A stretch of 64,000 bases of DNA from Escherichia phage slur09. A model generated the notes under the pieces. The model saw only the letters and a program-made list of their open reading frames with translations, made no database searches and was not told the DNA's origin. Shown here one piece after another: positions 22,876 to 57,439 of this stretch (position 1 is the stretch's first letter; each line of letters starts with the position of its first letter). The translations under genes were made by a program, and so were the position numbers. The stretch lies in sequence record NC_028840.1; one strand, given 5' to 3'.

Positions 22876-22904
22876 ATTATACAGAAAAATTTTCCTGAAA
22901 GCAA
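22876..22904 (-). promoter_or_regulatory. T5-type promoter (minus strand)
   Basis: rc TTGCTT-N17-TATAAT. Confidence 0.55.
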
Positions 22905-29023: not shown

Positions 29024-29237
29024 TTTTCACCTGTTCTCTGAAGTTTTGCCCAATACTGTCTAATAGCTCAGCTAATTCTTTATTGCCTTTCTCCATTAAG
29101 GTATTAGCAATAACTTCTAGCATAGTAGCACAGGATTCAACACCATCCTTATAGCCAGTTTCCCACTGCTGCATTAATGCATTTTCCAAAGCGGCATTTA
29201 AACCATTATCTGGTAGCATCGGCTTCGAGAATGCCAT
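29016..29237 (-). CDS. hypothetical protein
   Basis: ORF track, 73 aa. Confidence 0.4.
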   Translation of the reverse strand: MAFSKPMLPDNGLNAALENALMQQWETGYKDGVESCATMLEVIANTLMEKGNKELAELLDSIGQNFREQVKNA

Positions 29238-29430
29238 AAAGTTTCTCCTCTAGTTCCATAACACGATTTTCATAAGAGGCACGCAACTTTTCAATTGCCA
29301 GCGCACGCACTGTAACCTCATTAGAATTAATAGCTAATTGGGCCAGATCTTCTGTTTCCATACGTCCGTTGTAGATTAAGCGATATTTAAGGTGTTTCAC
29401 ATTCTTAGTCATTATTAAACTCCACTGCAA
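29206..29430 (-). CDS. hypothetical protein
   Basis: ORF track, 74 aa. Confidence 0.4.
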   Translation of the reverse strand: MQWSLIMTKNVKHLKYRLIYNGRMETEDLAQLAINSNEVTVRALAIEKLRASYENRVMELEEKLYGILEADATR

Positions 29431-29785
29431 CTGTTTCTAGGTCTTCATCAGAAAAATTAGAGTATACATCTTTAAGATATTGTTTAATGTCTTCAGTAAT
29501 ATCTTCGTATCCCTCAGGACTACGTTGGTATACTTTTAGTACTCTATTATAAACAAATTCAATATCATACTTTATTTCCCCCTCATCCTCGTCAAACAAG
29601 CAATCTGAGTTATACGGTGATACATCTAGATTTGTTTCTACCCAATCACCAATAATTGATGAATATCCAATACCCTCTAGATGGGAATAATCTCCAGTAG
29701 ATGCAAAAATAGCTTCCCTAAGATCGTCTACGCCAAGATGGAAATCACCACATGTAGACTCAACTATATAGGGCTTTAATTCCAT
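29405..29785 (-). CDS. hypothetical acidic protein
   Basis: ORF track, 126 aa. Confidence 0.45.
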   Translation of the reverse strand: MELKPYIVESTCGDFHLGVDDLREAIFASTGDYSHLEGIGYSSIIGDWVETNLDVSPYNSDCLFDEDEGEIKYDIEFVYNRVLKVYQRSPEGYEDITEDIKQYLKDVYSNFSDEDLETVAVEFNND

Positions 29786-29813
29786 ATCTTTCTCCTCTCA
29801 AATTTATAAATCT

Positions 29814-29842
29814 ATTATATATAAATTTTTGGCTGAAAGCAA
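29814..29842 (-). promoter_or_regulatory. T5-type promoter (minus strand)
   Basis: rc TTGCTT-N17-TATAAT. Confidence 0.55.
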
Positions 29843-29884
29843 ATAAAATAAAAGCCAGGTCGACTAGCAACCCGGCTGATTAGC

Positions 29885-31759
29885 TTATTTAGCTCGAATA
29901 TCCTGATGTTTCACCCTGCCCATCACCTCGTGCTGTTTGCCAGGGTTAAATGGACGAGCACCCGGATTTCCAAGATACCCACAAACTCGACGAGTTACTT
30001 CAAGAGTTTCGGGGTCATGATTACCACAGATAGGGCACTTAAATCCATCTTCGGATGCTATTGTTTCACCTAAGAATCCACATTTACCACAAGAATCCAC
30101 TGGAGTATTAATACCGAAGTAATGAACCTTACTAGCAGCATAATTAATAACCCATTCCAATGCATCTGGGAATCGTTTCATATCCGGTAATTCTACGTAG
30201 GAAATACACCCACCAGAAGCAATCGGAGTAAAGTTAGACTCATAATCAAATTTCACGTTAGGAGCAACTTTACGTTCCACATCAAGGTGGTGAGAGTTAG
30301 TGTAGTACCCTTTGGACAGAATATCTTCATGCTCCGGGAAATATTCACGGTCTAGACGACAAAAACGGTCACATAGGGATTCTGATGGTGTAGCATACAG
30401 GCTATAACCTAATTTAGTTTCTTCCTTCTTCTGATCGACTCTATCTCGCATGTACTGCAATACACGCTGAACAAACTTGATGCAGGTCTCGGACATTGTG
30501 TCTACATCTTTGCCAAACATGAACTGTAGCATTTCATGGCAACCAATATACCCTAGAGATACAGAAGCACGGTTATAGAAATGATCGAATACATACTCAT
30601 CAGGCCCTAAGCGTAATCCAAAGGCTCCTGACATATAGAGGATGGGTGCGGCTTTAGCTTGAATGTATTTTAAGCGATCAACTCTCCACTCCAATGCTTT
30701 TAACGCTGTATCCACACGTAGCTCAAGCAAATCAAAGAATAGATCAATATTCCCTTCAGCTTCGATAGCAATTCTAGGCAAGTTTACAGAAACAACACCT
30801 AAGTTATTACGGCCGGCAGTTTCACCATCTTCTGTAGCAGCTAGGAATGAACGGCAGCCCATAGAAACTTTGTAGTCTCCAGTAACTTCTACAACCTTGT
30901 CATAGCTGATATAATCTGGATACATACGTTCAGCAGTACATTTCATAGCTAACTTCTTGATGTCATAATTAACATCTCCTGGTTTCATATTTACACCATC
31001 ACGAAGTACAAATACCAGTTTCGGGAAGATAGCTGTACGTTTATTGATACCTAAGCCATCCATGCGTACTTTCAGTATTGCTTTCTGTACTAGACGTGCT
31101 TCCCAAGAAGTTCCTAGACCAAAACCAAAGGTAATAAATGGACTCTGACCATTAGAGTTGAACATGGTATTGATTTCATATTCTAAACCCTGACAAGCGT
31201 CATAGACTTCTTTTTCAGTCATCTCCGTAGCCATTACGGATGCTTTGGCTTCATCCTTAGTCCAACGTTTTGCAAACGCATGATTTTTATCATAGGATTT
31301 ACGAACATAAGGGGCTAATACTTCATCAAGGCGATCCACAGAAGTACCACCATACTGATGGGAGCTAACTTGAGTGATAATCTGAGCAGTAATAGCCGCC
31401 GCAGTAGTGATAGAATTTGGAGTGCTAATTTCAGCATTACCAACCTTCATACCATTCTTTAACATATCTTCCAGAGCTACCAGACAACAATTAGTCATGC
31501 CTAATGCAGCATAATCAGCATCATGGAAATGAATATCCCCAATCATATGAGCATTTCGAATCTGAATTGGCATTTCTTCTAGAATCAGATACTTACTCAA
31601 TTCGCCTGCAAGCATATCCCTTTGTGTAGGGAAACGTTCTGAGGGTTTATTGGCATTATTAAATAGCAGTTCTTCATCTGCTGACCCTTCGATAATCTCT
31701 TTGCAGTTTCTAATTAACGCCTGCATTTCTTTATATTTTAGTTCTTCATTACGATTCAT
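29885..31759 (-). CDS. nrdD: anaerobic ribonucleoside-triphosphate reductase (class III RNR)
   Basis: 624 aa; C-terminal glycyl-radical motif RVCGYLG and CxxC zinc site (CGKCG...CPICG). Confidence 0.92.
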   Translation of the reverse strand: MNRNEELKYKEMQALIRNCKEIIEGSADEELLFNNANKPSERFPTQRDMLAGELSKYLILEEMPIQIRNAHMIGDIHFHDADYAALGMTNCCLVALEDMLKNGMKVGNAEISTPNSITTAAAITAQIITQVSSHQYGGTSVDRLDEVLAPYVRKSYDKNHAFAKRWTKDEAKASVMATEMTEKEVYDACQGLEYEINTMFNSNGQSPFITFGFGLGTSWEARLVQKAILKVRMDGLGINKRTAIFPKLVFVLRDGVNMKPGDVNYDIKKLAMKCTAERMYPDYISYDKVVEVTGDYKVSMGCRSFLAATEDGETAGRNNLGVVSVNLPRIAIEAEGNIDLFFDLLELRVDTALKALEWRVDRLKYIQAKAAPILYMSGAFGLRLGPDEYVFDHFYNRASVSLGYIGCHEMLQFMFGKDVDTMSETCIKFVQRVLQYMRDRVDQKKEETKLGYSLYATPSESLCDRFCRLDREYFPEHEDILSKGYYTNSHHLDVERKVAPNVKFDYESNFTPIASGGCISYVELPDMKRFPDALEWVINYAASKVHYFGINTPVDSCGKCGFLGETIASEDGFKCPICGNHDPETLEVTRRVCGYLGNPGARPFNPGKQHEVMGRVKHQDIRAK

Positions 31760-31788
31760 TATACTCTCCTTCTCTAACTAAGACTACT

Positions 31789-31817
31789 ATTATAACTCAT
31801 TCGAGGGCGGATGTCAA
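31789..31817 (-). promoter_or_regulatory. consensus sigma70 promoter for nrdD (TTGACA-N17-TATAAT, minus strand)
   Basis: Perfect -35 and -10 hexamers with 17-bp spacer, about 30 bp upstream of the nrdD start; RBS AGGAG follows. Confidence 0.65.
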
Positions 31818-32009
31818 CAATATTTTACTGTAAAGTTCTGTAACATGATCTGAGTCAAAAAATTTTATTTGCCAACCTCTATTAAAAATCGTATAATCAC
31901 GCACTCGTGTATGCGATATAAAATGATTATCTAGTATCACACATCTCCCGTTAAAAGCAAGCAAATTTTTTATTTAAATGCAATATCATAGGCTTATTTA
32001 AAATTGTAG

Positions 32010-32038
32010 TTGCTTTTTACTGTATATATTGGTATAAT
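32010..32038 (+). promoter_or_regulatory. T5-type early promoter upstream of phoH
   Basis: TTGCTT-N17-TATAAT. Confidence 0.6.
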
Positions 32039-32111
32039 ATATTTGTAAGTTGATAAACAAGATCTTTTTGTTGATCCTCTGTTAGCGAAGTACACTATAG
32101 GAGTGTTATTT

Positions 32112-32864
32112 ATGGGAAAAGCACGTCAAAAAAGAGAGAACCGCAATGGTTCAAGAAAGCGTGGCAACAAATATGAGAATAACGTAATTCAGGCTGATTT
32201 TTCTAATGATTACGCTAACCCAGTTGCTAAATCCCTAGTAGGTAAAAACCGCGAGCAAAAATCATATATCAATATGATCAAGAACAACACAGTGACTGTG
32301 GGTATCGGTGAGCCAGGTACTGGTAAAACTTTTATTCCGTCCGTTCTTGCAGCTCAGGAACTCGTAGACATTCACTCAGATATTGAGCAAGTGATTCTCG
32401 TACGTCCTAATGAACCTCTAGGTAAGTCTCTTGGTATGCTTCCTGGTGATCTAGCGGAAAAGCTAGAGCCTTGGTTGGAGCCAATAGCTGATGGTATGAA
32501 ATGGGCCATCGGCGATCATGCATATAAAGGATATGTCGAACGTCAGAAAATTAAATTTTTGGCTATCGAACATGCTCGTGGCAGAACTTTCAACAACTCC
32601 TATGTAATTGTCGATGAAGCTCAGAATATTTCCGTTGAGGCAATGATTTGTCTCCTAACTCGTGTAGGACAAGACTGCCGTTTAATTATCTGCGGAGATA
32701 TAGCTCAGAAAGACATTAAAGGTGACTCAGGTCTAGCACTCCTTATGGAAGTCTATGAAAAATACGAAAATGCCCCATTCTCAATGATCGAATTGATTGA
32801 TAACGTTCGTTCTATTGAGTCTAAAGCATTCTATGATATTTTTAAAGACATGGGGAAGGTGTAA
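32112..32864 (+). CDS. phoH: PhoH-like ATPase
   Basis: Walker A GEPGTGKT, Walker B IVDEAQN; start at ATG 32112 after AGGAG RBS (ORF track starts at 32103). Confidence 0.85.
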   Translation: MGKARQKRENRNGSRKRGNKYENNVIQADFSNDYANPVAKSLVGKNREQKSYINMIKNNTVTVGIGEPGTGKTFIPSVLAAQELVDIHSDIEQVILVRPNEPLGKSLGMLPGDLAEKLEPWLEPIADGMKWAIGDHAYKGYVERQKIKFLAIEHARGRTFNNSYVIVDEAQNISVEAMICLLTRVGQDCRLIICGDIAQKDIKGDSGLALLMEVYEKYENAPFSMIELIDNVRSIESKAFYDIFKDMGKV

Positions 32865-32865
32865 T

Positions 32866-33087
32866 ATGGGAAACGTCGTTCATCTGAGCCGTAAAACTAA
32901 AATACATCGTACTTCACTGAGTGCTGCTAATATGATTACACGTAAGGAAGGGGAAGAAAGTCCTAAGACAACCCTAGCGTGGAAAATTGTAACCTCAAAT
33001 CCAAATAAACCATTCAACTATAACGAGCTGAGCACCTCCATAGATATTCTATTAAAAGAAGTAGCTAGAGCTAAAGTAATTGAATAA
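32866..33087 (+). CDS. hypothetical small protein
   Basis: ATG overlapping the phoH stop (TAATATG); longer ORF in track starts inside phoH. Confidence 0.4.
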   Translation: MGNVVHLSRKTKIHRTSLSAANMITRKEGEESPKTTLAWKIVTSNPNKPFNYNELSTSIDILLKEVARAKVIE

Positions 33088-33229
33088 GCTAAAAAGCTAG
33101 ACTGGTAGTATACAGGGCCTGGGTATGAAAATACTCGGGCCTTTTCTATCAGAAAATTTTATTTGCCTAATGACCGATAATAAAGTAGAATATTCCTTAA
33201 ATCCTGATAACTATAAAAAGGAAAGCCAA

Positions 33230-35560
33230 ATGAGCCATCGCATTGAAAAAGTAATTAAACGTGACGGTACTGTAGAAGACTTTGCTCCTGAAAAACTCAA
33301 TGGTTGGGCAGAGTATGGTTGCAAAACAGTTGATGTAAGTTGGTCAGCCATTACTATGGCTGCTCAAAAAACTCTGCCTAAAGGGGTTGTAGATTCCGAC
33401 ACTCTGATGGATGCATTAATTAAAGCTGCTGAAAGTCTTATCAAAGATAATCCAGCATATGATGTGCCGGCAAAGGAATTACGTCTTGCGCAAATGCGTA
33501 AACGCCTTTATGATTCTTTCGAACCACCTTCTCTACGCTTCTTCCATGACCATATGGTTAGCGTAGGTGCATGGGAAGACATGAGTGCATGGATTACCGA
33601 TGAGCAATTTGAAGCTCTGAATCAGGTTATCGACCATGATCGTGACCGTCTTTTTACTAGTGGTGGGCTAAAGCAGTTCTTTGATAAGTATTCCCGTCGT
33701 AACATAGCCACTGGTGAAATTTATGAAACTCCGCAGTTTGCCTACATGGGTATGGCAATGGCGATGCTATCTCAACCTAACTGGACAATTCTAGATGCAA
33801 TCGACCTCTACAACGCAATGTCACTCCACAAAATCAACGTTCCTACGCCGCCACTGGTTGGTCTGCGCTCTAGTGACCGTGGATTTGCTAGTTGCTGCCT
33901 CGTGGATTCCACTGACACGTTGGATTCAATCGACACCGCCGAGCACATCGTCTTCAAAATGGTCGCAGCCAGAGCGGGAATCGGGTATCATCTTGAAAGC
34001 CGATCAATTGCTGATCCGGTGCGAAATGGGGCATTCCCGCATTCCGGAAAACTGCCATATTATCGACACATTGACCGCTCAGTAAAGGCCAATACTCAGC
34101 AAACTCGTGGTGGTTCTGCCACAGTGTCTTATCCGTACTTCGACCCTGAAATCATTCAATTGATGCAGGTTAAGCAACAACGTGCTACAGATGAGAATAA
34201 AATCGATAAGATGGATTATTCTCTGAGCTTTAACAATCTTTTGTTAAAACGTTATCTTAAAAACGAAGATATTACGCTAATGTCATACTTCTATGCTCCA
34301 GAAGTTCATGAAGCGTTTTATAGTGATGACGAGGCTAAATTTGAAGAAATCTACGTGGCAGCGGAGAAACGTGTGGCATCTCTTACAAAGATCGACCACG
34401 AAGGAAAAACAGTTCCTGCAGCTCCTAAAGTCTCTGCAAAAGAAATTCTAGATACTTGGCTACGTATCCGAATGGAAACAGGACGTATGTATGCTCATCA
34501 CATTGGGGAATCTAATCGTCACGGTAACTTTCTTGATCCGATCCGTATGACAAACCTTTGTGTTGAAATTACTCAGCCTACACGCCCGTTCCATCATATC
34601 ACAGAGCTGTATAAGACAAAAGAGCAGCTTGATCAAATGAAGCCGGAGGATATTGGTGAAGTATCTCTGTGTAACTTAGGTGGTGTTGTACTTGGACGCA
34701 TGGAATCTCTGGCTGAGTGGGAAAAAACTTGCTACATCCTTCTGAAATTCGTTGATACAATTATTGAAATTCAGGATTATCCGTTCCCAACTATGGAATA
34801 TACGGCTAAGAAACGTCGTAATGTTGGTATTGGCCTGATGAACGCAGCAGGTGCAATGGCAGCAGAAGGTCTGGCTTATGAAGGTATTGAAGCCCGTAAC
34901 TGGATTCACCGTGAGGCTGAAAAACTGTCTTACTTCCTGCATAAAGCCTCTGTACGCCTAGCTAAAGAACAGGGTGCATGTGAGTGGTTTGATCGTACTA
35001 AACCGTCTAAAGGAATTCTGGTAATCGACACGTACAAGAAAACTGTTGATGAACTGGTATCCGTAGGTCTAGAAATGGATTGGGAGTCTCTGCGTGCAGA
35101 TATTCTGAAATATGGTATGCGTAACTCTGTTCTGACTGCTCAGATGCCAGGAGAAAGTTCTTCTGTTCTGCTAGGAGTTACTAACTCTATCGAACCGCCT
35201 CGTAAGATTGTATCTATCAAGGGTAGTGCAGTAAATAAAGTAATTGCAATTGCTCCAGGTGCAACCGATTGGGAAACGTTAATGAGCTATAAACTGGCTT
35301 ATGACATTGATAGGGTAGAGTATATTAAGTGGAATGCTGTTTACCAGAAGTTCCTGAATCAGTCTTCAAGCTTCCAGTCGTATTATGACTACTCTAAATT
35401 CGAGAATGAAATCATTCCAGGCCCAGTAGTAGTTCGTGACTTCATGATCGCTGTTAAGTATGGTATAAAAACTTGGTATTATGCTAATTTTAACACTGAA
35501 AATGGTGGTGGAGCTGGTGAAGAAGCAGTAGGTTGTGCATCAGGAGGCTGTCAGTTATAA
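33230..35560 (+). CDS. nrdA: ribonucleoside-diphosphate reductase alpha subunit (class Ia)
   Basis: ATP-cone N-terminus (MSHRIEKVIKRDGTVEDF), catalytic Cys motifs (NLCVEI, SLCNLG) and C-terminal Cys pair; start set at the internal ATG after AGGAAAG (ORF track starts at 33125). Confidence 0.9.
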   Translation: MSHRIEKVIKRDGTVEDFAPEKLNGWAEYGCKTVDVSWSAITMAAQKTLPKGVVDSDTLMDALIKAAESLIKDNPAYDVPAKELRLAQMRKRLYDSFEPPSLRFFHDHMVSVGAWEDMSAWITDEQFEALNQVIDHDRDRLFTSGGLKQFFDKYSRRNIATGEIYETPQFAYMGMAMAMLSQPNWTILDAIDLYNAMSLHKINVPTPPLVGLRSSDRGFASCCLVDSTDTLDSIDTAEHIVFKMVAARAGIGYHLESRSIADPVRNGAFPHSGKLPYYRHIDRSVKANTQQTRGGSATVSYPYFDPEIIQLMQVKQQRATDENKIDKMDYSLSFNNLLLKRYLKNEDITLMSYFYAPEVHEAFYSDDEAKFEEIYVAAEKRVASLTKIDHEGKTVPAAPKVSAKEILDTWLRIRMETGRMYAHHIGESNRHGNFLDPIRMTNLCVEITQPTRPFHHITELYKTKEQLDQMKPEDIGEVSLCNLGGVVLGRMESLAEWEKTCYILLKFVDTIIEIQDYPFPTMEYTAKKRRNVGIGLMNAAGAMAAEGLAYEGIEARNWIHREAEKLSYFLHKASVRLAKEQGACEWFDRTKPSKGILVIDTYKKTVDELVSVGLEMDWESLRADILKYGMRNSVLTAQMPGESSSVLLGVTNSIEPPRKIVSIKGSAVNKVIAIAPGATDWETLMSYKLAYDIDRVEYIKWNAVYQKFLNQSSSFQSYYDYSKFENEIIPGPVVVRDFMIAVKYGIKTWYYANFNTENGGGAGEEAVGCASGGCQL

Positions 35561-35568
35561 TAAAAACA

Positions 35569-35594
35569 AGGAGATCTTCGGGTCTCCTTTTTCT
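35569..35594 (+). terminator. Rho-independent terminator after nrdA
   Basis: Hairpin AGGAGATC-TTCG-GGTCTCCT plus T-run. Confidence 0.7.
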
Positions 35595-35606
35595 TTGAAA
35601 TTTTAC

Positions 35607-35635
35607 TTGCTAATCGCTACCAGATTTGCTATAAT
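35607..35635 (+). promoter_or_regulatory. T5-type promoter upstream of nrdB
   Basis: TTGCTA-N17-TATAAT. Confidence 0.6.
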
Positions 35636-35666
35636 ATTCCTGAAATAGTGAGAAAGAGGAAAATCA

Positions 35667-36812
35667 ATGACTACTTTACTAAACCTGAATTGGGATCATA
35701 CTAACGCTGACCTTTTCCTGGGAGATTCTCTCGGTATCGCAGATTATGTACGTGTAGCACATCCAGAACTAGAACGTCTGGCACTTCTGCAACGCTCTCA
35801 ATTTTGGACTGAAACTGAAATCAGTCTGGAAGCAGATAAGAAACAATGGCCTAATCTCCCACGGGAAATTCAGGAAATTACACTCCTGAACTTAGCATGG
35901 CAGACTCAAACAGATTCCTTTATCAGTCGTGCTCCTGAAGCAGCTATTATGCCGCTTGTAAGTCGTCCAGAATTGGAAGGTATGCTCAAGCAGTGGAGCT
36001 ACTTCGAAGATCTGCATAGTCGTGCTTATAGCAATATTATTCGTAATGTGCTAACTGATCCAGCAGAATTTATTGATTCTGTAACCAAAAACCAAGAAGC
36101 ATTCGCCCGTATCGCTGATTCTGTTGAACTATTCGATGAGCTATATCAGTTAGGTCAGTATTTCATCGCAGTACGCGATCATCGTGGCGACAATACATAT
36201 CCAGAAACTGAGTTCCCTGAAGTTAAACGTGAAACTCAGGCTAAGCTATTAGATGCTTACTTTGCGATCTACGGTCTGGAAGCAATGCAGTTTTACGCAT
36301 CCTTTGCATGTACCTTTGCATTAGCAGAGAACGATATTCTGCAAGGTATTGCTAAAAATCTGCAATTAATCGCTAAAGATGAAGCTCTGCACACTCAGAT
36401 GTCCAAAGCAATCATCCAGATTATGTTCCAGCAGTTTGACAAAGATCTGGTGGATGAAGCATTGGCTAAAGCACCAGCACAGCTCCTGAAAACTCTGAAA
36501 ACTGAAATTGAATGGGGTCATTTCATTTTCAAAGGTCGTAGTCTGATTGGTTTGAACGCAGAACTTCTAGAAGAGTACCTATATTTTGTGGGGCGTAATG
36601 CGTTTATGCACATTGGGGTAGAATGGCCTAGTCATTTACCAGTAATCACCAAAAACCCTATTCCGTGGATCATGAACTGGTTGGATACCACTTCTTTACA
36701 GCCTGCTCCACAAGAAATCCAGATTGGTGCAGCCTACCGTGTAGGTCAGGTAACTGAGACCTCTACGGATACTCTGAAAGATCTGGGCAATGAATTTGGA
36801 GATTTCTTATGA
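35667..36812 (+). CDS. nrdB: ribonucleoside-diphosphate reductase beta subunit
   Basis: 381 aa; di-iron ligand pattern (EALH, ENDILQ) and tyrosyl radical region. Confidence 0.9.
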   Translation: MTTLLNLNWDHTNADLFLGDSLGIADYVRVAHPELERLALLQRSQFWTETEISLEADKKQWPNLPREIQEITLLNLAWQTQTDSFISRAPEAAIMPLVSRPELEGMLKQWSYFEDLHSRAYSNIIRNVLTDPAEFIDSVTKNQEAFARIADSVELFDELYQLGQYFIAVRDHRGDNTYPETEFPEVKRETQAKLLDAYFAIYGLEAMQFYASFACTFALAENDILQGIAKNLQLIAKDEALHTQMSKAIIQIMFQQFDKDLVDEALAKAPAQLLKTLKTEIEWGHFIFKGRSLIGLNAELLEEYLYFVGRNAFMHIGVEWPSHLPVITKNPIPWIMNWLDTTSLQPAPQEIQIGAAYRVGQVTETSTDTLKDLGNEFGDFL

Positions 36813-37342
36813 TAACGGCATTATATGCAGTTGGGCCGAATGGGGAGTTCGGCCTCCGAGGTAAACTCCCCTGGGGTTCCTTCAAAGAAGAACTAGATGC
36901 TTTCTACTCCCAACTGGACGTGTTGAACCCAGATAACATCATCATTGGTGCGGGTACTTATTTAGCACTTCCAGAAGTTGTTCGGCAACGTATGATTGGA
37001 GAATCTGACCTCTTTATTCGTGCGGATCGTCCTCTGCCTGATGATATTAAACATGGTATCTATACCCCGATTTCAAAGATTGGGGATACATTACCTACTT
37101 TCTTAAAAGATCAGCAGACAGTGGTTTTAGGTGGCGCAACATTACTATACGAAATGTATATTCATGGACATATTGAAAGTGCTTTTGTATCCACAATCTT
37201 TAGTAATCAAAAACTAGAGGCAGATGTACATCTGGATAATATGATTCTAGATTACAACTATGAATCTACTCGTTTAGTTTACGCAACTGGCGCAAACAGT
37301 GATAACAGCCTGCGATTTGTACAGGAATTGGTTACTTATTAA
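36809..37342 (+). CDS. frd: dihydrofolate reductase
   Basis: 177 aa; position between nrdB and thyA, DHFR-like N-terminus (ITALYAVGPNGEFG); overlaps the nrdB stop (ATGA). Confidence 0.75.
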   Translation: MITALYAVGPNGEFGLRGKLPWGSFKEELDAFYSQLDVLNPDNIIIGAGTYLALPEVVRQRMIGESDLFIRADRPLPDDIKHGIYTPISKIGDTLPTFLKDQQTVVLGGATLLYEMYIHGHIESAFVSTIFSNQKLEADVHLDNMILDYNYESTRLVYATGANSDNSLRFVQELVTY

Positions 37343-38181
37343 TGCAACAATATTTAAAAATTCTAACAGATGTAATTCTACTAGGTGAACCACGTAACGA
37401 TCGTACAGGAACAGGCACAGTTTCAATTTTTGATTCCTATGCTAAGTTCGATTTACGTGAGGGATTCCCAGCTGTAACTACTAAACGTCTAGCTTGGAAA
37501 TCGGTAGTTGGAGAACTCTTATGGTTTTTATCTGGATCTACAAATCTCCATGATCTACGAGTATTCACATTTGGGCGTGACGAAGGACAGTGGACTATCT
37601 GGACTCCAAATTATGAAGACCAAGCCATAAGCATGGGTTATGACAGAGGTAATCTGGGGCCAGTATATGGTAAACAATGGCGCAACTTTGGTGGACGAGA
37701 TCAGATCCTAGAACTCATTGAGGGTCTCAAGAATAATCCACATGGTCGTAGACACCTAGTATCTGCATGGAACGTAGCTGAACTGGATAAGATGGCATTA
37801 CCACCATGTCACTATGGTTTCCAATGTTACGTAAGTAATGATGGATACTTAGATCTTAAATGGACACAACGTTCTGTAGACTGTTTTCTAGGTCTGCCTT
37901 TCAATATTGCTAGCTATGCTTTATTAACACATATCCTGGCAAAACTGACTGGATTAAAACCCCGTTATCTTATCTTTAGTGGGGGAGATACGCATATTTA
38001 TAGTGATCATATAGAGCAAGTAGAGGAGCAAATGAAACGTAAACCACGTCCTTTGCCAACTCTAGTAATGCCAGAATTTGTAGATCTCTATGATTTATTA
38101 GAGAATAATACTGCGGCTTGGTCCTTCCAACTTGAAGGATATGATCCACATCCAGCTCTTAAAGCTAAAATGTCCTCTTAA
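37342..38181 (+). CDS. thyA: thymidylate synthase
   Basis: 279 aa; active-site LPPCHYGFQCYV motif and DRTGTGT N-terminal motif. Confidence 0.92.
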   Translation: MQQYLKILTDVILLGEPRNDRTGTGTVSIFDSYAKFDLREGFPAVTTKRLAWKSVVGELLWFLSGSTNLHDLRVFTFGRDEGQWTIWTPNYEDQAISMGYDRGNLGPVYGKQWRNFGGRDQILELIEGLKNNPHGRRHLVSAWNVAELDKMALPPCHYGFQCYVSNDGYLDLKWTQRSVDCFLGLPFNIASYALLTHILAKLTGLKPRYLIFSGGDTHIYSDHIEQVEEQMKRKPRPLPTLVMPEFVDLYDLLENNTAAWSFQLEGYDPHPALKAKMSS

Positions 38182-38187
38182 CTTAAG

Positions 38188-38212
38188 TAGCCCTTCGGGG
38201 CTATTATATTTA
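38188..38212 (+). terminator. terminator hairpin after thyA (AGCCC-TTCG-GGGCT)
   Basis: GC stem with TTCG loop followed by T-rich tract. Confidence 0.6.
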
Positions 38213-38220
38213 AATTTCAT

Positions 38221-38249
38221 TTGCTTATTTAGTGAAATTTAAATATAAT
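38221..38249 (+). promoter_or_regulatory. T5-type promoter
   Basis: TTGCTT-N17-TATAAT. Confidence 0.6.
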
Positions 38250-38274
38250 ATATTTTATAAATTGGAGGTATATA

Positions 38275-38556
38275 ATGATCTCAGCCAAAGAAGCTCAAGA
38301 ACTTGCAGGATTAACAGAAGTACCCGCATTTCTAAAGTTTATAGAAGAAAAGATTGTAGAAGCTGCTAAGTCTGGAAATACAGAAGTAATTATTCGAGAT
38401 AATCCTTACGCTAGGTGGCTATATAATCCTAGAGAAATGCCAGGAGCAGCTAAATCGGTACTAAAAACCTTATCGGATAAGGGGTATCATCTCTCACAAT
38501 ACTACCGAGAAGCCGCCTTTGTAGACATGGGTCTTAAAATTAGTTGGGAGGTATAA
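38275..38556 (+). CDS. hypothetical protein
   Basis: ORF track, 93 aa, GGAGG RBS. Confidence 0.5.
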   Translation: MISAKEAQELAGLTEVPAFLKFIEEKIVEAAKSGNTEVIIRDNPYARWLYNPREMPGAAKSVLKTLSDKGYHLSQYYREAAFVDMGLKISWEV

Positions 38557-39032
38557 TGTCGGTTTTCCACATTTACACAGATGGTGCTTGTAAGTCTAAC
38601 CCAGGTCCAGGTGCTTGGGGTTTTATTGTCTATGATGATAACGACGATCGTTTAGGTTCTAAATCTGGTTATAGTCCTAAAACTACAAATAATGAGATGG
38701 AACTCACAGCTATTGTAGAAGCTCTACGTTGGTCTGTTAAAAAAGATAATAGACCAATTGCTATCTATACTGACTCTGCTTATTGCAAAAATGGCATGGA
38801 AAGTTGGATGTTTTCTTGGCAAAGGAAAGGCTGGAAGAAAGCAGATGGTGAAGCTCCTCTTAATCTAGAACTTTGGCAGGAAGCATTTAAATTAACACAG
38901 CAGTATATCAACTTTCATAATACTAACCCTACATTTATTAAGGTTAAAGGACATTCTGGTATTAGTGGTAATGAAGCTGTAGATGCCTTATGTAATACAG
39001 TTATTACTGAAGCTGAAATGGCTGAGATGTGA
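38556..39032 (+). CDS. rnh: ribonuclease H
   Basis: RNase H motifs (IYTDGAC, ELTAI, YTDSAY, GHSG...NE.VD); start at ATG after GGGAGG (ORF track starts at 38544). Confidence 0.85.
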   Translation: MSVFHIYTDGACKSNPGPGAWGFIVYDDNDDRLGSKSGYSPKTTNNEMELTAIVEALRWSVKKDNRPIAIYTDSAYCKNGMESWMFSWQRKGWKKADGEAPLNLELWQEAFKLTQQYINFHNTNPTFIKVKGHSGISGNEAVDALCNTVITEAEMAEM

Positions 39033-52514: not shown

Positions 52515-52616
52515 AATTCTGTGTAGAGTTAAGTAAACCGGTAGCCAACCAGCTATCATTGCTGACATCGAATTCAGCCACAGATACCATTTTCATTAAT
52601 AACTGAGGAAACAAGC

Positions 52617-53262: not shown

Positions 53263-53384
53263 CAAAATTTCAGTGCAGAACACGGAGCTAGCAATTCGGA
53301 AGTGCCGACTCATGATAGGCTGCCTATGTACTTGCGAAGCGGTCGTGTCCAAGACTCGGACTCTTGCACTGAAAACAATCAAAC

Positions 53385-53505
53385 ATTCTAGCGTGGTTGA
53401 TGGGGAAACCAGCTTGGCTAGGGCAGAAGCTCGTTCGATTCGAGTGAAAGAATGGTTCTCGTAAGTCCGCACAAGTGATAACAGGTTCGAGTCCTGTCTA
53501 GAATG
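53385..53505 (+). ncRNA. tRNA-like RNA (about 121 nt) with a roughly 53-nt insertion in the anticodon arm
   Basis: Perfect 7-bp acceptor ATTCTAG/CTAGAAT; D-arm TGGT/ACCA with GG-containing loop; anticodon-type stem CTTG/CAAG enclosing 53418-53470; T-arm ACAGG-TTCGAGT-CCTGT. Confidence 0.4.
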
Positions 53506-53514
53506 ACACTATAA

Positions 53515-53637
53515 AGTTTACTTATTATGTAGGTTCCGATAGATCGGCGGGTCTATTCTGGCATTTAAGAGAGGTCTCGCAAACTTCTTTGTCAGCCGTG
53601 GGGTTGATAGCCTCCAGGTGGCCTACACAATAAGTAA
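53515..53637 (+). repeat. 17-bp inverted repeat (TTTACTTATTATGTAGG / CCTACACAATAAGTAAA, one mismatch) flanking an 89-bp core
   Basis: Arms at 53515-53531 and 53621-53637 are reverse complements with a single mismatch; no ORF inside. Confidence 0.6.
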
Positions 53638-53654: not shown

Positions 53655-53683
53655 TTGCTATTCTGCTTAATTATCTGTATAAT
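53655..53683 (+). promoter_or_regulatory. T5-type promoter
   Basis: TTGCTA-N17-TATAAT. Confidence 0.6.
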
Positions 53684-54102: not shown

Positions 54103-54267
54103 ATGAAAGTATTTCGATTAGTAGTAAGTGACAAACGTTTAGGTAAGAATACCTCAAAATCCTTACTTGCTCATTATGGAAAAGACGAGAAAGAAGTAAT
54201 GGCGGAGTTTGGGATTAATCACCCTTACTTGAAAGTTCACTCTATTAAGGAAGTTTATGCTTATTAA
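54103..54267 (+). CDS. hypothetical small protein (54 aa)
   Basis: ATG shortly after the tRNA; below ORF-track cutoff; stop overlaps the start of ORF 54257. Confidence 0.35.
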   Translation: MKVFRLVVSDKRLGKNTSKSLLAHYGKDEKEVMAEFGINHPYLKVHSIKEVYAY

Positions 54268-54730
54268 CAAGGTGCTTCAAGCTCTAGATCTTCCAGAGCT
54301 CTTTACTATTACCGACTCCTTAATACATCGGTATATGGAAAAGTATAATGAAATCTCTGGTAAAAAAGGGAAACTAAAATCCTCAGAATTTAAGTTCTGT
54401 TATAGAATGGCAGCATTAAACCTCTTAAAGTATAAGAGGGAGCATAAAATTCCTATAACAGAAGGATTTGTCTATGTAATAGGTAATCCAGCATGGCCTG
54501 GACTATATAAGATAGGCATGACAGTAGATGTGAACGAAAGACTGTCTAGTTATCAAACATATTCGCCTTATCGTGATTACAAGTTATACCATTTCAGATT
54601 CTCCTCAGACAAGAGAAGAACTGAAAAAGCATTACATAACCTTCTGAAAGACTACAAAATATCAGGAGAATGGTTTGAAGTACCTCTGTTAGACGCCTTC
54701 AAACTATTAGTAGAAAATTTGGATTGCTAA
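54257..54730 (+). CDS. T5orf172-domain protein (GIY-YIG-like, putative homing endonuclease family)
   Basis: 157 aa; GFVYVIGNPAWPGLYKIGMT...RLSSYQTYSP motif, paralog of 50740..51231. Confidence 0.6.
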   Translation: MLINKVLQALDLPELFTITDSLIHRYMEKYNEISGKKGKLKSSEFKFCYRMAALNLLKYKREHKIPITEGFVYVIGNPAWPGLYKIGMTVDVNERLSSYQTYSPYRDYKLYHFRFSSDKRRTEKALHNLLKDYKISGEWFEVPLLDAFKLLVENLDC

Positions 54731-54798
54731 CTCAACTGGATAAGAGTACCGGACCTTTAATCCGTCAGTTCTGGGTTCGAATCCCAGGCAATCCACCA
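54721..54798 (+). tRNA. tRNA-Lys (anticodon TTT)
   Basis: Acceptor GGATTGC/GCAATCC, D-arm ACTC/GAGT, anticodon loop CCTTTAA, T-arm CTGGG-TTCGAAT-CCCAG, encoded CCA. Confidence 0.8.
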
Positions 54799-54816
54799 AT
54801 TTCAAGAAAAACTCAG

Positions 54817-54845
54817 TTGCTTGATGCTTAATTTCTTGTTATAAT
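54817..54845 (+). promoter_or_regulatory. T5-type promoter driving a 1.2-kb ORF-free tRNA/ncRNA transcript
   Basis: TTGCTT-N17-TATAAT; no ORF of 60 aa or more until 56023. Confidence 0.6.
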
Positions 54846-55083
54846 ATTTATATAAATTGATGAGGAGAAATCCTCATCATAGTTCACTAAGGTATTAGCT
54901 CGACCTAGGACTGGCTGCCAAAAAGCACGATCCCTTCTACTTGGGAGGAGTTCTAGATTAGTCCACTAGATTCAGTGGCAACTGAGTAGTGTATCGGGTT
55001 TGCGAGATGACGTAGTTCCTTCCGCTCGAAGCGAAGGTGCTGTAGTTACGCCGAGCTAATAGCCTTAGTAAACTAAAGAATTT

Positions 55084-55162
55084 GGGGAATGGGTCTGCAT
55101 GGAGTGGACACCTCGCTTGCACCGAGGACATCAGGACGGTTCGATTCCGTTATTCTCCACCA
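55084..55162 (+). tRNA. tRNA-Ala (anticodon TGC)
   Basis: Acceptor GGGGAAT/ATTCTCC (G3-U70 wobble), anticodon arm CCTCG-CTTGCAC-CGAGG, T-arm GACGG-TTCGATT-CCGTT, encoded CCA. Confidence 0.65.
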
Positions 55163-55356: not shown

Positions 55357-55447
55357 GGAAGAGCAAATCGAATTGGCGACGAAAACCGCTTGGAAAGTGG
55401 CTGACTGGTAAAACGGCTTGAGAGTTCAAATCTCTCCTCTTCCGCCA
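55357..55447 (+). tRNA. tRNA-Ser (anticodon GGA), long variable arm
   Basis: Acceptor GGAAGAG/CTCTTCC, G73, anticodon arm CCGC-TTGGAAA-GTGG, long variable arm, T-arm GAGAG-TTCAAAT-CTCTC, encoded CCA. Confidence 0.65.
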
Positions 55448-55459
55448 AACAATTTATAT

Positions 55460-55554
55460 GGTAGGTCAATCCAATGGCTGGCGCTGGACTCCGACTTGAA
55501 ATCGGTTGATCGTAGTGATACGGTGTAAGGGTTCGATCCCCTTACCTACCTCCA
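55460..55554 (+). tRNA. tRNA-Ser (anticodon TGA), long variable arm
   Basis: Acceptor GGTAGGT/ACCTACC, anticodon arm CCGA-CTTGAAA-TCGG, long variable arm, T-arm AAGGG-TTCGATC-CCCTT, encoded CCA. Confidence 0.65.
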
Positions 55555-55559
55555 AGTCT

Positions 55560-55691
55560 TGAAGTATGCCGGAATCGGTAGACGGGGCTGCCTAAAAGGT
55601 TTACAGGGAACATCCACTCCTTGCAACATACCTCATAAAGCGGCTGAGATAAATGGTCTATCTCGTGAAGGTTCAAGTCCTTCTGCTTCTT
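55560..55691 (+). ncRNA. tRNA-like RNA (about 132 nt): type II-like scaffold with a roughly 48-nt insertion in the anticodon arm
   Basis: Acceptor TGAAGTA/TGCTTCT (6 of 7 pairs, U1-U72), D-arm CCG-GAATCGGTAGA-CGG, anticodon-type stem GCTGC/GCGGC enclosing 55592-55639, variable hairpin GAGATA/TATCTC, T-arm GAAGG-TTCAAGT-CCTTC; no CCA. Confidence 0.35.
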
Positions 55692-55802
55692 GATACATCT
55701 ATGGCTCAAAGTGTAACGGTGCTATTTGATGCTCTTAGTAAGACTTTCCCGACATGCGTTCGGGAGTAAGCTGCTAAGGCTAGAGTAGAAGAGTTTCTGA
55801 GA

Positions 55803-55925
55803 GCCGCCACAATTGAAAATTCGTACTCGTCTTGAGCTGCGTGCAATAGGAGATAACTTGATTAGTATTCTAGAACATGCTAATTGAGGATGGTTTCGCT
55901 AACCCTGCGAGTTTTCAATTGTGGC
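55803..55925 (+). repeat. 14-bp perfect inverted repeat (GCCACAATTGAAAA / TTTTCAATTGTGGC, extendable to about 18 bp with one mismatch) flanking a 95-bp core; 3' arm overlaps the 5' end of tRNA-His
   Basis: Arms at 55803-55816 and 55912-55925 are exact reverse complements. Confidence 0.55.
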
Positions 55926-57410: not shown

Positions 57411-57439
57411 TTGCTTTCTCTCTTATTTATTGTTATAAT
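57411..57439 (+). promoter_or_regulatory. T5-type promoter
   Basis: TTGCTT-N17-TATAAT. Confidence 0.6.

What the first reader, a model, noticed from the sequence alone, without database searches (positions are those of the whole stretch)
54865..55083. Structured 220-nt leader between a promoter and tRNA-Ala
Immediately downstream of the promoter at 54817-54845 there is a hairpin (GATGAGGA...TCCTCATC) and about 200 nt of ORF-free sequence before the first tRNA of a 1.2-kb tRNA/ncRNA transcript. It could be a processed leader sRNA.
Basis: seen in the sequence. Interest (0 to 1): 0.4.

Follow-up and report, generated by a model that had tools for sequence, protein, structure and literature searches.

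The report
Phage T5 stable RNA "RNA2H"
The flagged "leader" is this T5-like phage's copy of RNA2H, a small stable RNA already annotated in phage T5 whose function is still unknown; comparison across related phages shows it is a conserved, tightly folded RNA with two pseudoknots, embedded in the transfer-RNA gene cluster.

Summary
A T5-type early promoter (54817-54845), a 9-bp hairpin (54858-54879) and about 200 ORF-free, strongly folding bases precede tRNA-Ala.

The window is a T5-like phage (Tequintavirus). The region is 94% identical to the T5 feature annotated as "rna2H / RNA2H, stable RNA with unknown functions", downstream of "promoter P13b". So the reading "processed leader sRNA" is right, but the RNA is already known.

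The conserved unit is 54880-55075, and the mature RNA by homology is 54893-55064.

New here:
- Covariance models recover the RNA across Demerecviridae, in Escherichia/Salmonella, Klebsiella, Pectobacterium, Proteus and one Vibrio phage.
- Covariation supports a 22-bp closing helix with a conserved bulged G, a four-helix core, two loop-strand pseudoknots and two swappable hairpins.
- It matches no Rfam family, has no bacterial or plasmid copy, and is not protein-coding.
- The annotated ends lie in the closing helix with a 2-bp stagger, which suggests RNase III processing.
- It is dispensable in the laboratory.

Function remains unknown. A trans-acting protein-binding or decoy role is my inference.

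The parts
54817..54845 (+). T5-type early promoter, the orthologue of T5 P13b: -35 TTGCTT at 54817-54822, 17-nt spacer, extended -10 TGtTATAAT ending at 54845
   Evidence: Sequence. The T5 'promoter P13b' feature aligns to 54798-54871 at 93% identity. The TTGCT-N18-TATAAT pattern is found 23 times against 0.16 expected.
54858..54879 (+). 5' leader hairpin (9 bp, GAAA loop) in the initially transcribed region. It belongs to the promoter module, not to RNA2H.
   Evidence: Energy -13.8 kcal/mol, z = -4.7. It is present only in homologues that carry the promoter and is replaced by unrelated sequence in phage 5, chee158, 8sent65, Kp150049, Ob_P and STK8t. T5 itself has one mismatched pair in it.
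54880..55075 (+). Complete conserved RNA2H module, from the outer end of closing helix P1 to its other outer end
   Evidence: Covariance model hits of 229.5 bits (R1) and 211.9 bits (R2). Module boundaries come from alignment A1.
54893..55064 (+). Mature RNA2H (172 nt) by homology with the T5 annotation: 5' UAUUAGCUCG ... CGAGCUAAUAGCC 3'
   Evidence: The T5 misc_RNA rna2H (NC_005859 31808-31979) aligns end to end without gaps at 94.2% identity.
54880..54902 (+). P1 5' arm: outer 13 nt at 54880-54892, inner 10 nt at 54893-54902. The annotated 5' end lies between G54892 and U54893.
   Evidence: 22 pairs, 99% of cells paired, 18 pairs with compensatory changes across clades.
54908..54913 (+). 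PK1 5' strand GGACUG, which pairs with the Pc loop at 54959-54964
   Evidence: 6 bp, 98.6-100% paired, 4 of 6 positions compensatory. Variants: GAGCCG/UGGCUC, GAGUCG/UGACUC, GAACCG/UGGUUC, GAACCA/UGGUUU.
54916..54919 (+). PK2 5' strand UGCC, which pairs with the Pd loop GGCA at 54977-54980
   Evidence: 100% paired, 3 of 4 positions compensatory. Variants: ACC/GGU, CGCC/GGCG, GCA/UGC.
54920..54924 (+). Conserved A-rich linker AAAAA between PK2 and Pj
   Evidence: Nearly invariant in alignments A2 and A6 and kept as AAAAA, AAAAG or ACAAA in all clades. Its role is inferred (possibly minor-groove contacts).
54925..54928 (+). Pj 5' strand GCAC, which pairs with GUGU at 54989-54992 and closes the V1/Pc/Pd junction
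   Evidence: 100% paired. The Proteus phage has AUGC/GCAU (two compensatory pairs) and Klebsiella phages have A-U in place of G.U.
54931..54946 (+). V1 variable hairpin. Epseptimavirus and Klebsiella phages carry a version 21-26 nt longer.
   Evidence: Basal pairs covary (CC/GG to UG/CA). The length differences of 23, 25 and 26 nt are not multiples of 3.
54952..54970 (+). Pc hairpin UCUAG/CUAGA with a 9-nt loop that contains PK1 3' strand UAGUCC (54959-54964)
   Evidence: Salmonella phage SE3 has the double compensatory change CUGA/UCAG. All 5 pairs covary across clades.
54971..54986 (+). Pd hairpin UUCAG/CUGAG with a loop that contains PK2 3' strand GGCA (54977-54980)
   Evidence: The stem covaries: ACGC/GCGU, AGGG/CCCU, GGGG/CCCC.
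54989..54992 (+). Pj 3' strand GUGU, within the conserved AGUGUA
   Evidence: helix 4.
54994..55005 (+). Ps small hairpin UCG-GGUUUG-CGA
   Evidence: 2 of 3 pairs are compensatory (AAG/UUU in the Pectobacterium phage).
55009..55049 (+). V2 variable hairpin. Two sequence versions exist within T5-like phages.
   Evidence: 10 of 11 pairs change on both sides, but largely through one cassette swap.
55052..55075 (+). P1 3' arm: inner part at 55052-55061, universally conserved bulged G at 55062, outer part at 55063-55075. The annotated 3' end follows C55064.
55084..55162 (+). tRNA-Ala(UGC), the first tRNA downstream, 8 nt after P1
   Evidence: ARAGORN. RNA2H homologues lie 2-8 nt upstream of a tRNA in Klebsiella and Pectobacterium phages.

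Best explanation
The region encodes the orthologue of bacteriophage T5 RNA2H.

Transcription (shown by homology and sequence). The sigma-70 early promoter P13b transcribes a polycistronic RNA: a short hairpin leader, then RNA2H, tRNA-Ala, tRNA-Leu and further tRNAs and stable RNAs.

Fold (shown by covariation). RNA2H folds on its own into a compact domain.
- A 22-bp closing helix, P1, carries a conserved bulged G.
- An inner helix, Pj, closes a junction of three hairpins: V1, Pc and Pd.
- The 5' strand GGACUG-GC-UGCC pairs with the loops of Pc and Pd, forming two pseudoknots.
- These are followed by a conserved A-rich strand.
- A small hairpin (Ps) and a variable hairpin (V2) complete the fold.

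Processing (inferred). The RNA is cut out of the precursor inside P1. The ends annotated in T5 sit opposite each other with a 2-bp stagger, leaving a 3' overhang. That is the geometry left by host RNase III on a duplex of 20 bp or more. RNase P then trims the downstream tRNA.

Function (inferred, low confidence). The released RNA of about 172 nt most likely acts in trans through its pseudoknotted core, as a binding partner or decoy for a host or phage protein. This would be an accessory part of the tRNA-cluster host-takeover and counter-defence module. It is not needed for growth on laboratory E. coli.
For: Identity.
- 94.2% identity, end to end, to T5 rna2H (T5s04), with the same promoter upstream and the same tRNA-Ala and tRNA-Leu downstream.
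- The same feature is annotated in BF23 and Salmonella phage 5.

Structure.
- 64 pairs in 9 helices; 97.7% of cells form standard pairs; 52 pairs change on both sides.
- Covariation score 0.476, against 0.181 in shuffles (0 of 500 reach it) and 0.055-0.107 with slid partners.
- The pseudoknot columns were not part of the covariance model, yet they are 98.6% and 100% paired, with 4 of 6 and 3 of 4 compensatory positions.

Family breadth.
- Hits of 87-92 bits in Klebsiella Sugarlandvirus and Pectobacterium Hongcheonvirus.
- Hits of 43 bits (E about 2e-12) in Proteus Novosibvirus and Vibrio phage D426.
- In 544 kb of unrelated DNA nothing scores between 10 and 209 bits.

Independence of the module.
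- Upstream and downstream neighbours change while the module is kept.

Processing.
- Annotated ends are U54893, paired with A55061, and C55064.
- The outer 13 bp of P1 and the bulged G are kept in all clades.

Dispensability.
- T5 deletion mutants covering 29191-32442 and 30661-38625 are viable (PMC11464382). RNA2H lies at 31808-31979.
- The natural isolate FFH1 lacks 126 nt of the core.

Not coding, not cellular.
- Indels are not multiples of 3.
- No match in 5,426 E. coli genomes, in plasmids, or in one genome per bacterial and archaeal species.
Against: - Accumulation of a stable 172-nt RNA and its exact ends rest on GenBank annotations by the Ksenzenko group. I could not read the primary papers or any RNA-seq data.
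- RNase III involvement is deduced from geometry only.
- The outer part of P1 is conserved in sequence more than a plain RNase III stem would need. Some other sequence-specific step may therefore act there.
- No binding partner, target or phenotype is known. The trans-acting or decoy role is an argument from architecture and genomic context.
- Two Demerecviridae examined (Vibrio phages Achelous and VspSw_1) gave no hit in 34 kb around their tRNA clusters.
Confidence: 0.75

Rival explanations
1. Purely cis-acting leader. The long helix is only a processing and insulation signal that separates the promoter-proximal leader from the tRNAs and sets up RNase P processing. The excised piece is a by-product without a function of its own.
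For: It always lies in the tRNA cluster, usually 2-8 nt upstream of a tRNA. Its ends lie in a 22-bp duplex. It is dispensable in the laboratory.
Against: A processing stem does not need two covarying pseudoknots, an invariant A-rich strand and a near-100% conserved core kept from Vibrio to Escherichia phages. In GEC_N7, STK8t, 8sent65 and the Proteus phage PM135 an ORF separates it from the next tRNA. T5 annotates it as a stable RNA, not a discarded spacer.
Confidence: 0.15
2. tRNA-like end, processed by the tRNA machinery rather than RNase III. The inner 10 bp of P1 plus G-CC mimic an acceptor stem, discriminator and CC. RNase P makes the 5' end, and the CCA-adding enzyme completes the 3' end.
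For: The mature ends read 5' U paired with A, followed by G-C-C. The neighbouring T5 RNAI ends ...GAGCC-G-CCA with a matching 5' GGCUC. The RNA lies among RNase P substrates.
Against: The base after GCC is U, not A. The Proteus and Vibrio homologues have G-CU at this place. In the precursor the CC is base-paired to the 5' leader (AAGG/CCUU). No tRNA model, T-loop or cloverleaf is detected in 54880-55075.
Confidence: 0.2
3. Self-cleaving or otherwise catalytic RNA. The double-pseudoknot core is a ribozyme that liberates itself, or acts on tRNA precursors.
For: The architecture is compact, pseudoknotted and about 170 nt long. Nucleotides around both ends are invariant: RG|N on the 5' side and the bulged G followed by CY| on the 3' side.
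Against: No similarity to any ribozyme family in Rfam, even at E up to 10 and in four clades. Both ends lie within a regular duplex, which is typical of RNase III and not of known small ribozymes. No catalytic-core motif was recognised.
Confidence: 0.05
4. Cis-regulatory riboswitch-like aptamer that controls transcription into the tRNAs.
For: Its structural complexity and invariant unpaired nucleotides resemble ligand-binding aptamers. It lies directly downstream of a promoter in this phage.
Against: There is no terminator or other expression platform on the + strand between 54880 and 55083 and no downstream ORF. Half of the homologues lack the adjacent promoter. It is annotated as a stable excised RNA.
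Confidence: 0.04
5. Protein-coding or DNA-level element. Several GenBank records annotate 'hypothetical protein' here. Alternatively it could be a homing-endonuclease target or replication site.
For: Hypothetical-protein annotations overlap it in a number of records. A 57-aa ORF lies on the minus strand at 54958-55131. Homing endonuclease genes populate the tRNA region.
Against: Indels of 23, 25 and 26 nt occur inside the element. The substitution pattern is base-pair compensatory, including long-range pseudoknot pairs. The minus-strand ORF runs through tRNA-Ala. A DNA site does not explain RNA-type G.U-tolerant covariation on one strand.
Confidence: 0.01

Closest known systems
Bacteriophage T5 RNA2H (gene rna2H, locus T5s04, NC_005859 31808-31979; also annotated in BF23 AJ604530 and Salmonella phage 5 AJ604531)
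   Same: Orthologous sequence (94% identity), same length, and the same position between promoter P13b and tRNA-Ala/tRNA-Leu.
   Different: Nothing essential differs. This phage lacks the tRNA-Val that precedes P13b in T5 and has a few substitutions in V1, Pd and V2. The annotation gives no structure and no function.
Bacteriophage T4 species 1 and species 2 RNAs (rnaC, rnaD)
   Same: Small stable RNAs of unknown function, encoded inside a phage tRNA gene cluster and cut from the tRNA precursor transcript (annotation; processing is general knowledge).
   Different: No homology: covariance model R2 finds nothing in the T4 tRNA region. They come from a different phage family and differ in size and sequence.
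RNase III processing stems (rRNA operon 16S/23S stems, T7 early RNA sites)
   Same: A long perfect duplex formed by sequences flanking the mature RNA. The ends are staggered by 2 bp and leave a 3' overhang (RNase III geometry is established knowledge).
   Different: Cleavage by RNase III has not been shown for RNA2H. The outer stem and a bulged G are conserved in sequence, which is unusual for RNase III substrates.
ROOL and GOLLD RNAs (large ornate RNAs of phages and prophages, often next to tRNA genes)
   Same: Elaborately structured, phage-borne, tRNA-adjacent and of unknown function (recalled knowledge).
   Different: RNA2H is far smaller (about 170 nt against roughly 500-800 nt). It does not match the Rfam models. 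There is no evidence of multimeric assembly.
Tandem-pseudoknot RNAs (tmRNA pseudoknots; the upstream pseudoknot domain next to plant-virus tRNA-like structures)
   Same: Consecutive hairpin-loop pseudoknots placed next to a tRNA or tRNA-like element.
   Different: No sequence or model similarity: the only tmRNA matches are 15-17-nt fragments elsewhere. There is no tag ORF and no aminoacylatable end.

Membership tests
T5 RNA2H orthologue group | Full-length sequence homology to the annotated T5 rna2H | tested here: met
   172 of 172 nt aligned at 94.2% identity without gaps. 425 phage records match the region.
T5 RNA2H orthologue group | Position inside the early tRNA gene region, same strand as the tRNAs, upstream of tRNA-Ala and tRNA-Leu | tested here: met
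   The same arrangement holds in Klebsiella phages.
T5 RNA2H orthologue group | Accumulates as a discrete stable RNA of about 172 nt in infected cells | not testable with these tools
   Rests on the GenBank annotation 'stable RNA'. No expression data were available.
Any Rfam 15 family (including ribozymes, riboswitches, tmRNA, RNase P, 6S, Y RNA, ROOL, GOLLD) | Score at or above the family's gathering threshold, or a consistent sub-threshold match across homologues | tested here: not met
   No match within 54880-55075 at gathering thresholds, and only chance-level snoRNA matches overlapping its 5' edge at E up to 10. Epseptimavirus copies show the same weak snoU30 edge match and the Pectobacterium copy a weak RNAI match; there is no hit over the Klebsiella copy.
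tRNA / tRNA-like RNA | Cloverleaf with a T-loop, detectable by ARAGORN or the Rfam tRNA model | tested here: not met
   No call in 54880-55075.
tRNA / tRNA-like RNA | Acceptor-type end: paired N1-N72, discriminator, CCA | tested here: inconclusive
   U-A pair followed by G-CC in T5-like, Klebsiella and Pectobacterium phages, but G-CU in the Proteus and Vibrio homologues, and the next base is U.
RNase III-processed RNA | Duplex of about 20 bp or more spanning the cleavage sites | tested here: met
   P1 has 22 bp and is 99% paired in 23 sequences.
RNase III-processed RNA | Mature ends staggered to leave a 2-nt 3' overhang | tested here: met
   The annotated 5' end U54893 pairs with A55061. The 3' end C55064 pairs with G54891, two pairs beyond, plus the bulged G. 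This rests on annotated ends.
RNase III-processed RNA | Processing abolished in an rnc mutant host | not testable with these tools
   Needs an experiment.
T4 rnaC/rnaD | Sequence and structure homology | tested here: not met
   R2 finds nothing in T4 66000-76000 at E up to 10.
Riboswitch / cis-regulatory leader | Expression platform (terminator or sequestered ribosome-binding site) and a regulated downstream gene | tested here: not met
   No + strand terminator in 54880-55083. No ORF follows; tRNA follows directly.

The most novel reading that the evidence does not exclude
RNA2H is the founding member of an unclassified RNA family conserved across Demerecviridae. Its double-pseudoknot core would have a specific molecular activity in trans. 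Candidates are a high-affinity decoy or inhibitor of a host RNA-targeting or tRNA-targeting defence or RNA-processing enzyme, or an RNA-only ligand-binding or catalytic module. In that case the phage tRNA cluster carries a second, non-tRNA kind of counter-defence RNA.
Probability: 0.3. Interest if true: 0.65.

Novelty: already known. Interest (0 to 1): 0.4.

Why it matters
T5 and its relatives are classic model phages and common candidates for therapy and biocontrol. Their tRNA region has recently been shown to carry counter-defence functions: tRNA-Lys acts against PARIS (PMC11464382).

That region also encodes seven annotated RNAs beyond the standard tRNAs (RNA1, RNA2, RNA3, RNAI, RNAIII, RNAIV, RNA2H), most described as of unknown function. 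Showing three things about RNA2H gives a defined target for mutagenesis, pull-downs and structure determination, and a ready model for annotation:
- it is an independently folding, double-pseudoknotted RNA;
- it is conserved from Vibrio to Escherichia phages;
- it is absent from cellular genomes and from Rfam.

Many GenBank records currently leave it blank or call it a hypothetical protein.

As a scan finding, however, it rediscovers an annotated feature.

Tried and rejected
- Minimum-free-energy and RNAalifold models. These proposed helix P2 (CUAGGACU/AGUUCUAG), helix Px (CACUA/UAGUG) and a small hairpin H1 (GCU/AGC). All are rejected. Salmonella phage SE3 breaks P2 and Px while keeping the competing Pc hairpin through double compensatory changes. 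Klebsiella phages break H1 and P2. The same nucleotides form pseudoknots PK1 and PK2 and helix Pj, with covariation.
- The leader hairpin as part of the RNA. Rejected from alignment A1.
- Protein-coding reading. Rejected because of frame-breaking indels and the covariation pattern.
- Host homologue or target. A pattern scan of one genome per bacterial and archaeal species gave only chance matches (72 found, about 130 expected by my estimate; none confirmed by nhmmer). BLAST against 5,426 E. coli genomes and against plasmids found nothing.
- A recurring 83-nt-span pattern match in Bacteroidales and rumen contigs. It is unrelated to RNA2H.
- Metagenome and IMG/VR scans added only close T5-like copies.
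- T4 rnaC/rnaD homology. None.
- Filters-off covariance searches failed technically. Absence from Vibrio phages Achelous and VspSw_1 therefore rests on default filters only.
- Literature searches for RNA2H, T5 stable RNAs and Demerecviridae ncRNAs found nothing usable in the held library beyond reference-list citations and the deletion-mutant data.
- Resemblances recalled from memory were not supported by any model match and are not claimed: RNase P helix P4, twister, B12 box, boxA, and the CRISPR repeat in V1.

Full report
**What is there.**
The window is part of a T5-like phage. An 8-kb stretch around the finding matches hundreds of Tequintavirus and Epseptimavirus genomes at 85-97% identity. 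The window carries 21 tRNA genes on one strand.

The finding lies between tRNA-Lys (54721-54798) and tRNA-Ala (55084-55162).
- The promoter is TTGCTT, 17 nt, TGtTATAAT at 54817-54845.
- The generic sigma-70 scan does not list it, because its -35 hexamer matches TTGACA at only three positions.
- It belongs to the phage's own promoter class: TTGCT-N18-TATAAT occurs 23 times in the window against 0.16 expected.
- The hairpin at 54858-54879 has 9 bp, -13.8 kcal/mol and z = -4.7.
- No + strand ORF of 20 aa or more lies between it and the tRNA.
- The 224 nt fold far better than shuffles, at -81.3 kcal/mol and z = -5.4.

**Identity.**
The 219 nt of the finding match 425 phage records.
- In the T5 reference genome the aligned stretch is annotated misc_RNA rna2H (T5s04), 'RNA2H, stable RNA with unknown functions', 172 nt. 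'Promoter P13b' precedes it, and tRNA-Ala and tRNA-Leu follow.
- The tRNA-region records of Salmonella phage 5 and of BF23 carry the same annotation.
- The T5 feature aligns to window 54893-55064 without gaps at 94.2% identity, and P13b aligns to 54798-54871.

The feature is already known. Its function is not.

**Boundaries.**
An alignment with twelve homologues shows the conserved unit running from 54880 (UAGUUCAC...) to 55075 (...GUAAACUA).
- Upstream of 54880, half of the homologues have the promoter-plus-hairpin module and the other half have unrelated sequence.
- Downstream, some have an ORF inserted before tRNA-Ala.

A 5' stem-loop that stabilises the primary transcript is a plausible role, but that is inference.

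**Structure within T5-like phages.**
Three blocks are almost invariant and two hairpins, V1 and V2, vary.
- V1 differs in length by 23-26 nt between genera.
- V2 exists in two sequence versions that keep the same pairing.

The thermodynamic and RNAalifold models turned out to be partly wrong.
- Salmonella phage SE3 carries four linked substitutions that keep a hairpin, Pc (UCUAG/CUAGA to UCUGA/UCAGA), but break the predicted helices P2 and Px.

**Structure across the family.**
A covariance model built from 22 T5-like sequences (R1) found full-length homologues outside the subfamily.
- Klebsiella phages Roth39 and GlastoCabaret (Sugarlandvirus) score 92 and 90 bits.
- Pectobacterium phage DU_PP_V (Mccorquodalevirinae) scores 87 bits.

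A second model that included them (R2) reached two more distant phages.
- Proteus phage PM135 and Vibrio phage D426 each score 43 bits, E about 2e-12.
- As a specificity control, 544 kb of unrelated metagenomic DNA gave nothing between 10 and 209 bits.

These distant copies settle the fold. On 23 sequences the count gives the following.
- 64 pairs in 9 helices, with 97.7% of cells forming standard pairs.
- 52 pairs change on both sides.
- The covariation score is 0.476, against 0.181 for shuffles (0 of 500 reach it) and 0.055-0.107 with slid partners.

The model has these parts.
- P1 is a 22-bp closing helix (54880-54902 with 55052-55075), interrupted by a universally conserved bulged G (55062).
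- Pj (GCAC/GUGU) closes a junction holding hairpins V1, Pc and Pd.
- Pseudoknot PK1 joins GGACUG (54908-54913) to the Pc loop UAGUCC. Its variants are GAGCCG/UGGCUC, GAGUCG/UGACUC, GAACCG/UGGUUC and GAACCA/UGGUUU.
- Pseudoknot PK2 joins UGCC (54916-54919) to the Pd loop GGCA. Its variants are ACC/GGU, CGCC/GGCG and GCA/UGC.
- A conserved A-rich strand lies between PK2 and Pj.
- A small hairpin, Ps, and the variable hairpin V2 follow.

The pseudoknot columns were not part of the covariance model, so their 98.6% and 100% pairing, with 4 of 6 and 3 of 4 compensatory positions, is an independent test.

The mature 172 nt, folded without pseudoknots, score only z = -1.8. The order in the core is tertiary.

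**What it is not.**
- No Rfam 15 family matches any clade's copy, even at E up to 10.
- It is not a tRNA.
- It is not related to the T4 rnaC/rnaD RNAs.
- It is not protein-coding. Indels are not multiples of three and the substitution pattern is base-pair compensatory. Several GenBank records nonetheless place 'hypothetical protein' on it.
- It has no copy in 5,426 E. coli genomes, in 72,556 plasmids, or in one genome per bacterial and archaeal species.
- Metagenome and IMG/VR scans returned only T5-like phage contigs.

**Biogenesis (inferred).**
The ends annotated in T5 map to U54893 and C55064.
- In P1, U54893 pairs with A55061.
- The 3' end extends through the bulged G55062 and two more paired bases.
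- Both cuts therefore lie in a continuous duplex of 20 bp or more, offset by 2 bp and leaving a 3' overhang. This is the signature of RNase III, from established knowledge of that enzyme.

An alternative is a tRNA-like reading: acceptor-type stem, discriminator G, then CC.
- The neighbouring RNAI, which ends GAGCC-G-CCA, suggests it.
- The G-CU found at this position in the Proteus and Vibrio homologues weakens it, as does pairing of the CC with the leader.

One point is not explained by either view. The outer 13 bp of P1, which the annotation says are removed, keep more sequence identity across clades than a plain processing stem needs.

**Function (inferred, low confidence).**
- The module is kept as a unit while its neighbours change.
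- It always sits in the tRNA cluster on the tRNA strand.
- It is conserved across much of the phage family.
- It is dispensable in the laboratory. T5 deletion mutants lacking 29191-32442 or 30661-38625 are viable (PMC11464382; RNA2H is at 31808-31979). The isolate FFH1 has lost 126 nt of the core by deletion between two GCTCGA repeats.

A compact, pseudoknotted, excised and stable RNA with invariant unpaired nucleotides fits a trans-acting binding or decoy RNA better than an antisense regulator or a mere spacer. The same cluster is known to supply counter-defence tRNAs (PMC11464382). I therefore favour an accessory host-takeover or counter-defence role, and no tool result tests this.

Rivals are a cis-only processing element, a ribozyme and a riboswitch. 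They are listed with what would refute them.

**Verdict.**

The element is the already annotated T5 RNA2H, so as a discovery it is not new.

What this analysis adds is a covariation-supported double-pseudoknot model, family-wide distribution, corrected boundaries, and a testable processing hypothesis for an RNA whose function is still unknown.

Noticed in passing
window 52517-52589, 53384-53508, 53527-53629, 55558-55702, 55703-55809, 55814-55919: Orthologues of the six other annotated T5 small RNAs are present: RNA3, RNA2, RNAIV, RNA1, RNAI and RNAIII. T5 describes most as of unknown function and three as tRNA-like. RNAIII has a 17-bp closing helix whose 3' arm overlaps the 5' end of tRNA-His. 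RNAI ends like a tRNA acceptor (GAGCC-G-CCA in T5).
   Followed up: partly
window ~55358-55447 and 55460-55550: Two tRNA-Ser-like genes (anticodons GGA and UGA by eye) are missed by ARAGORN and by Rfam at gathering threshold. The second scores 37.6 bits against the tRNA-Sec model, below its cut-off. Only the 3' part resembles T5 tRNA-Ser1.
   Followed up: no
window, 23 sites, e.g. 22876-22904 (-), 53655-53683 (+), 57411-57439 (+): The T5-type promoter pattern TTGCT-N18-TATAAT is enriched about 140-fold: 23 sites against 0.16 expected. From memory, the site at 22876-22904 looks the same as the classic strong T5 promoter used in expression vectors.
   Followed up: partly
window 54257-54730 (+): An ORF encodes a MUG113/T5orf172-domain protein (Pfam E = 2e-19). 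It is inserted between tRNA-Met and tRNA-Lys, and its 3' end overlaps the start of tRNA-Lys. T5 has a 168-nt ORF at this place and a tRNA-Val after tRNA-Lys. It is possibly a mobile nuclease-like gene.
   Followed up: partly
L238 (Escherichia phage FFH1, NC_024139 30060-30952): A natural 126-nt deletion removes the whole RNA2H core. It lies between two GCTCGA repeats, one in the P1 5' arm and one in the V2 loop. The promoter, the hairpin and tRNA-Ala stay intact.
   Followed up: yes
L237 (Klebsiella phage vB_Kpn_3, MZ079855 84167-84382): This RNA2H copy is a chimera: the 5' half is of Klebsiella type and the 3' half of Epseptimavirus type, so P1 no longer pairs. It is either a recombinant pseudogene or an assembly artefact; the record is labelled 'partial genome'.
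   Followed up: no
GenBank records MG065692 (Campylobacter phage C13) and MG065642 (A148): Records labelled Campylobacter phage carry T5-like sequence, including RNA2H at 96.7% identity. They are probably mislabelled or contaminating T5-like phages.
   Followed up: no
metagenome and genome loci such as L040, L046, L053, L157, L176, L197: The search pattern GGACTGGCTGCC-N-TAGTCCA recurs with an identical 83-nt span in many rumen and Bacteroidales contigs. These are not RNA2H (no nhmmer hit). Some conserved Bacteroidales sequence seems to contain both words.
   Followed up: no
Epseptimavirus V1 insert, e.g. L006 ~470-500: The longer V1 version contains a CCCC-UAAUGGC-GGGG hairpin followed by GAUAC. 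From memory it faintly resembles an enterobacterial type I-E CRISPR repeat hairpin. This was not tested and is probably chance.
   Followed up: no
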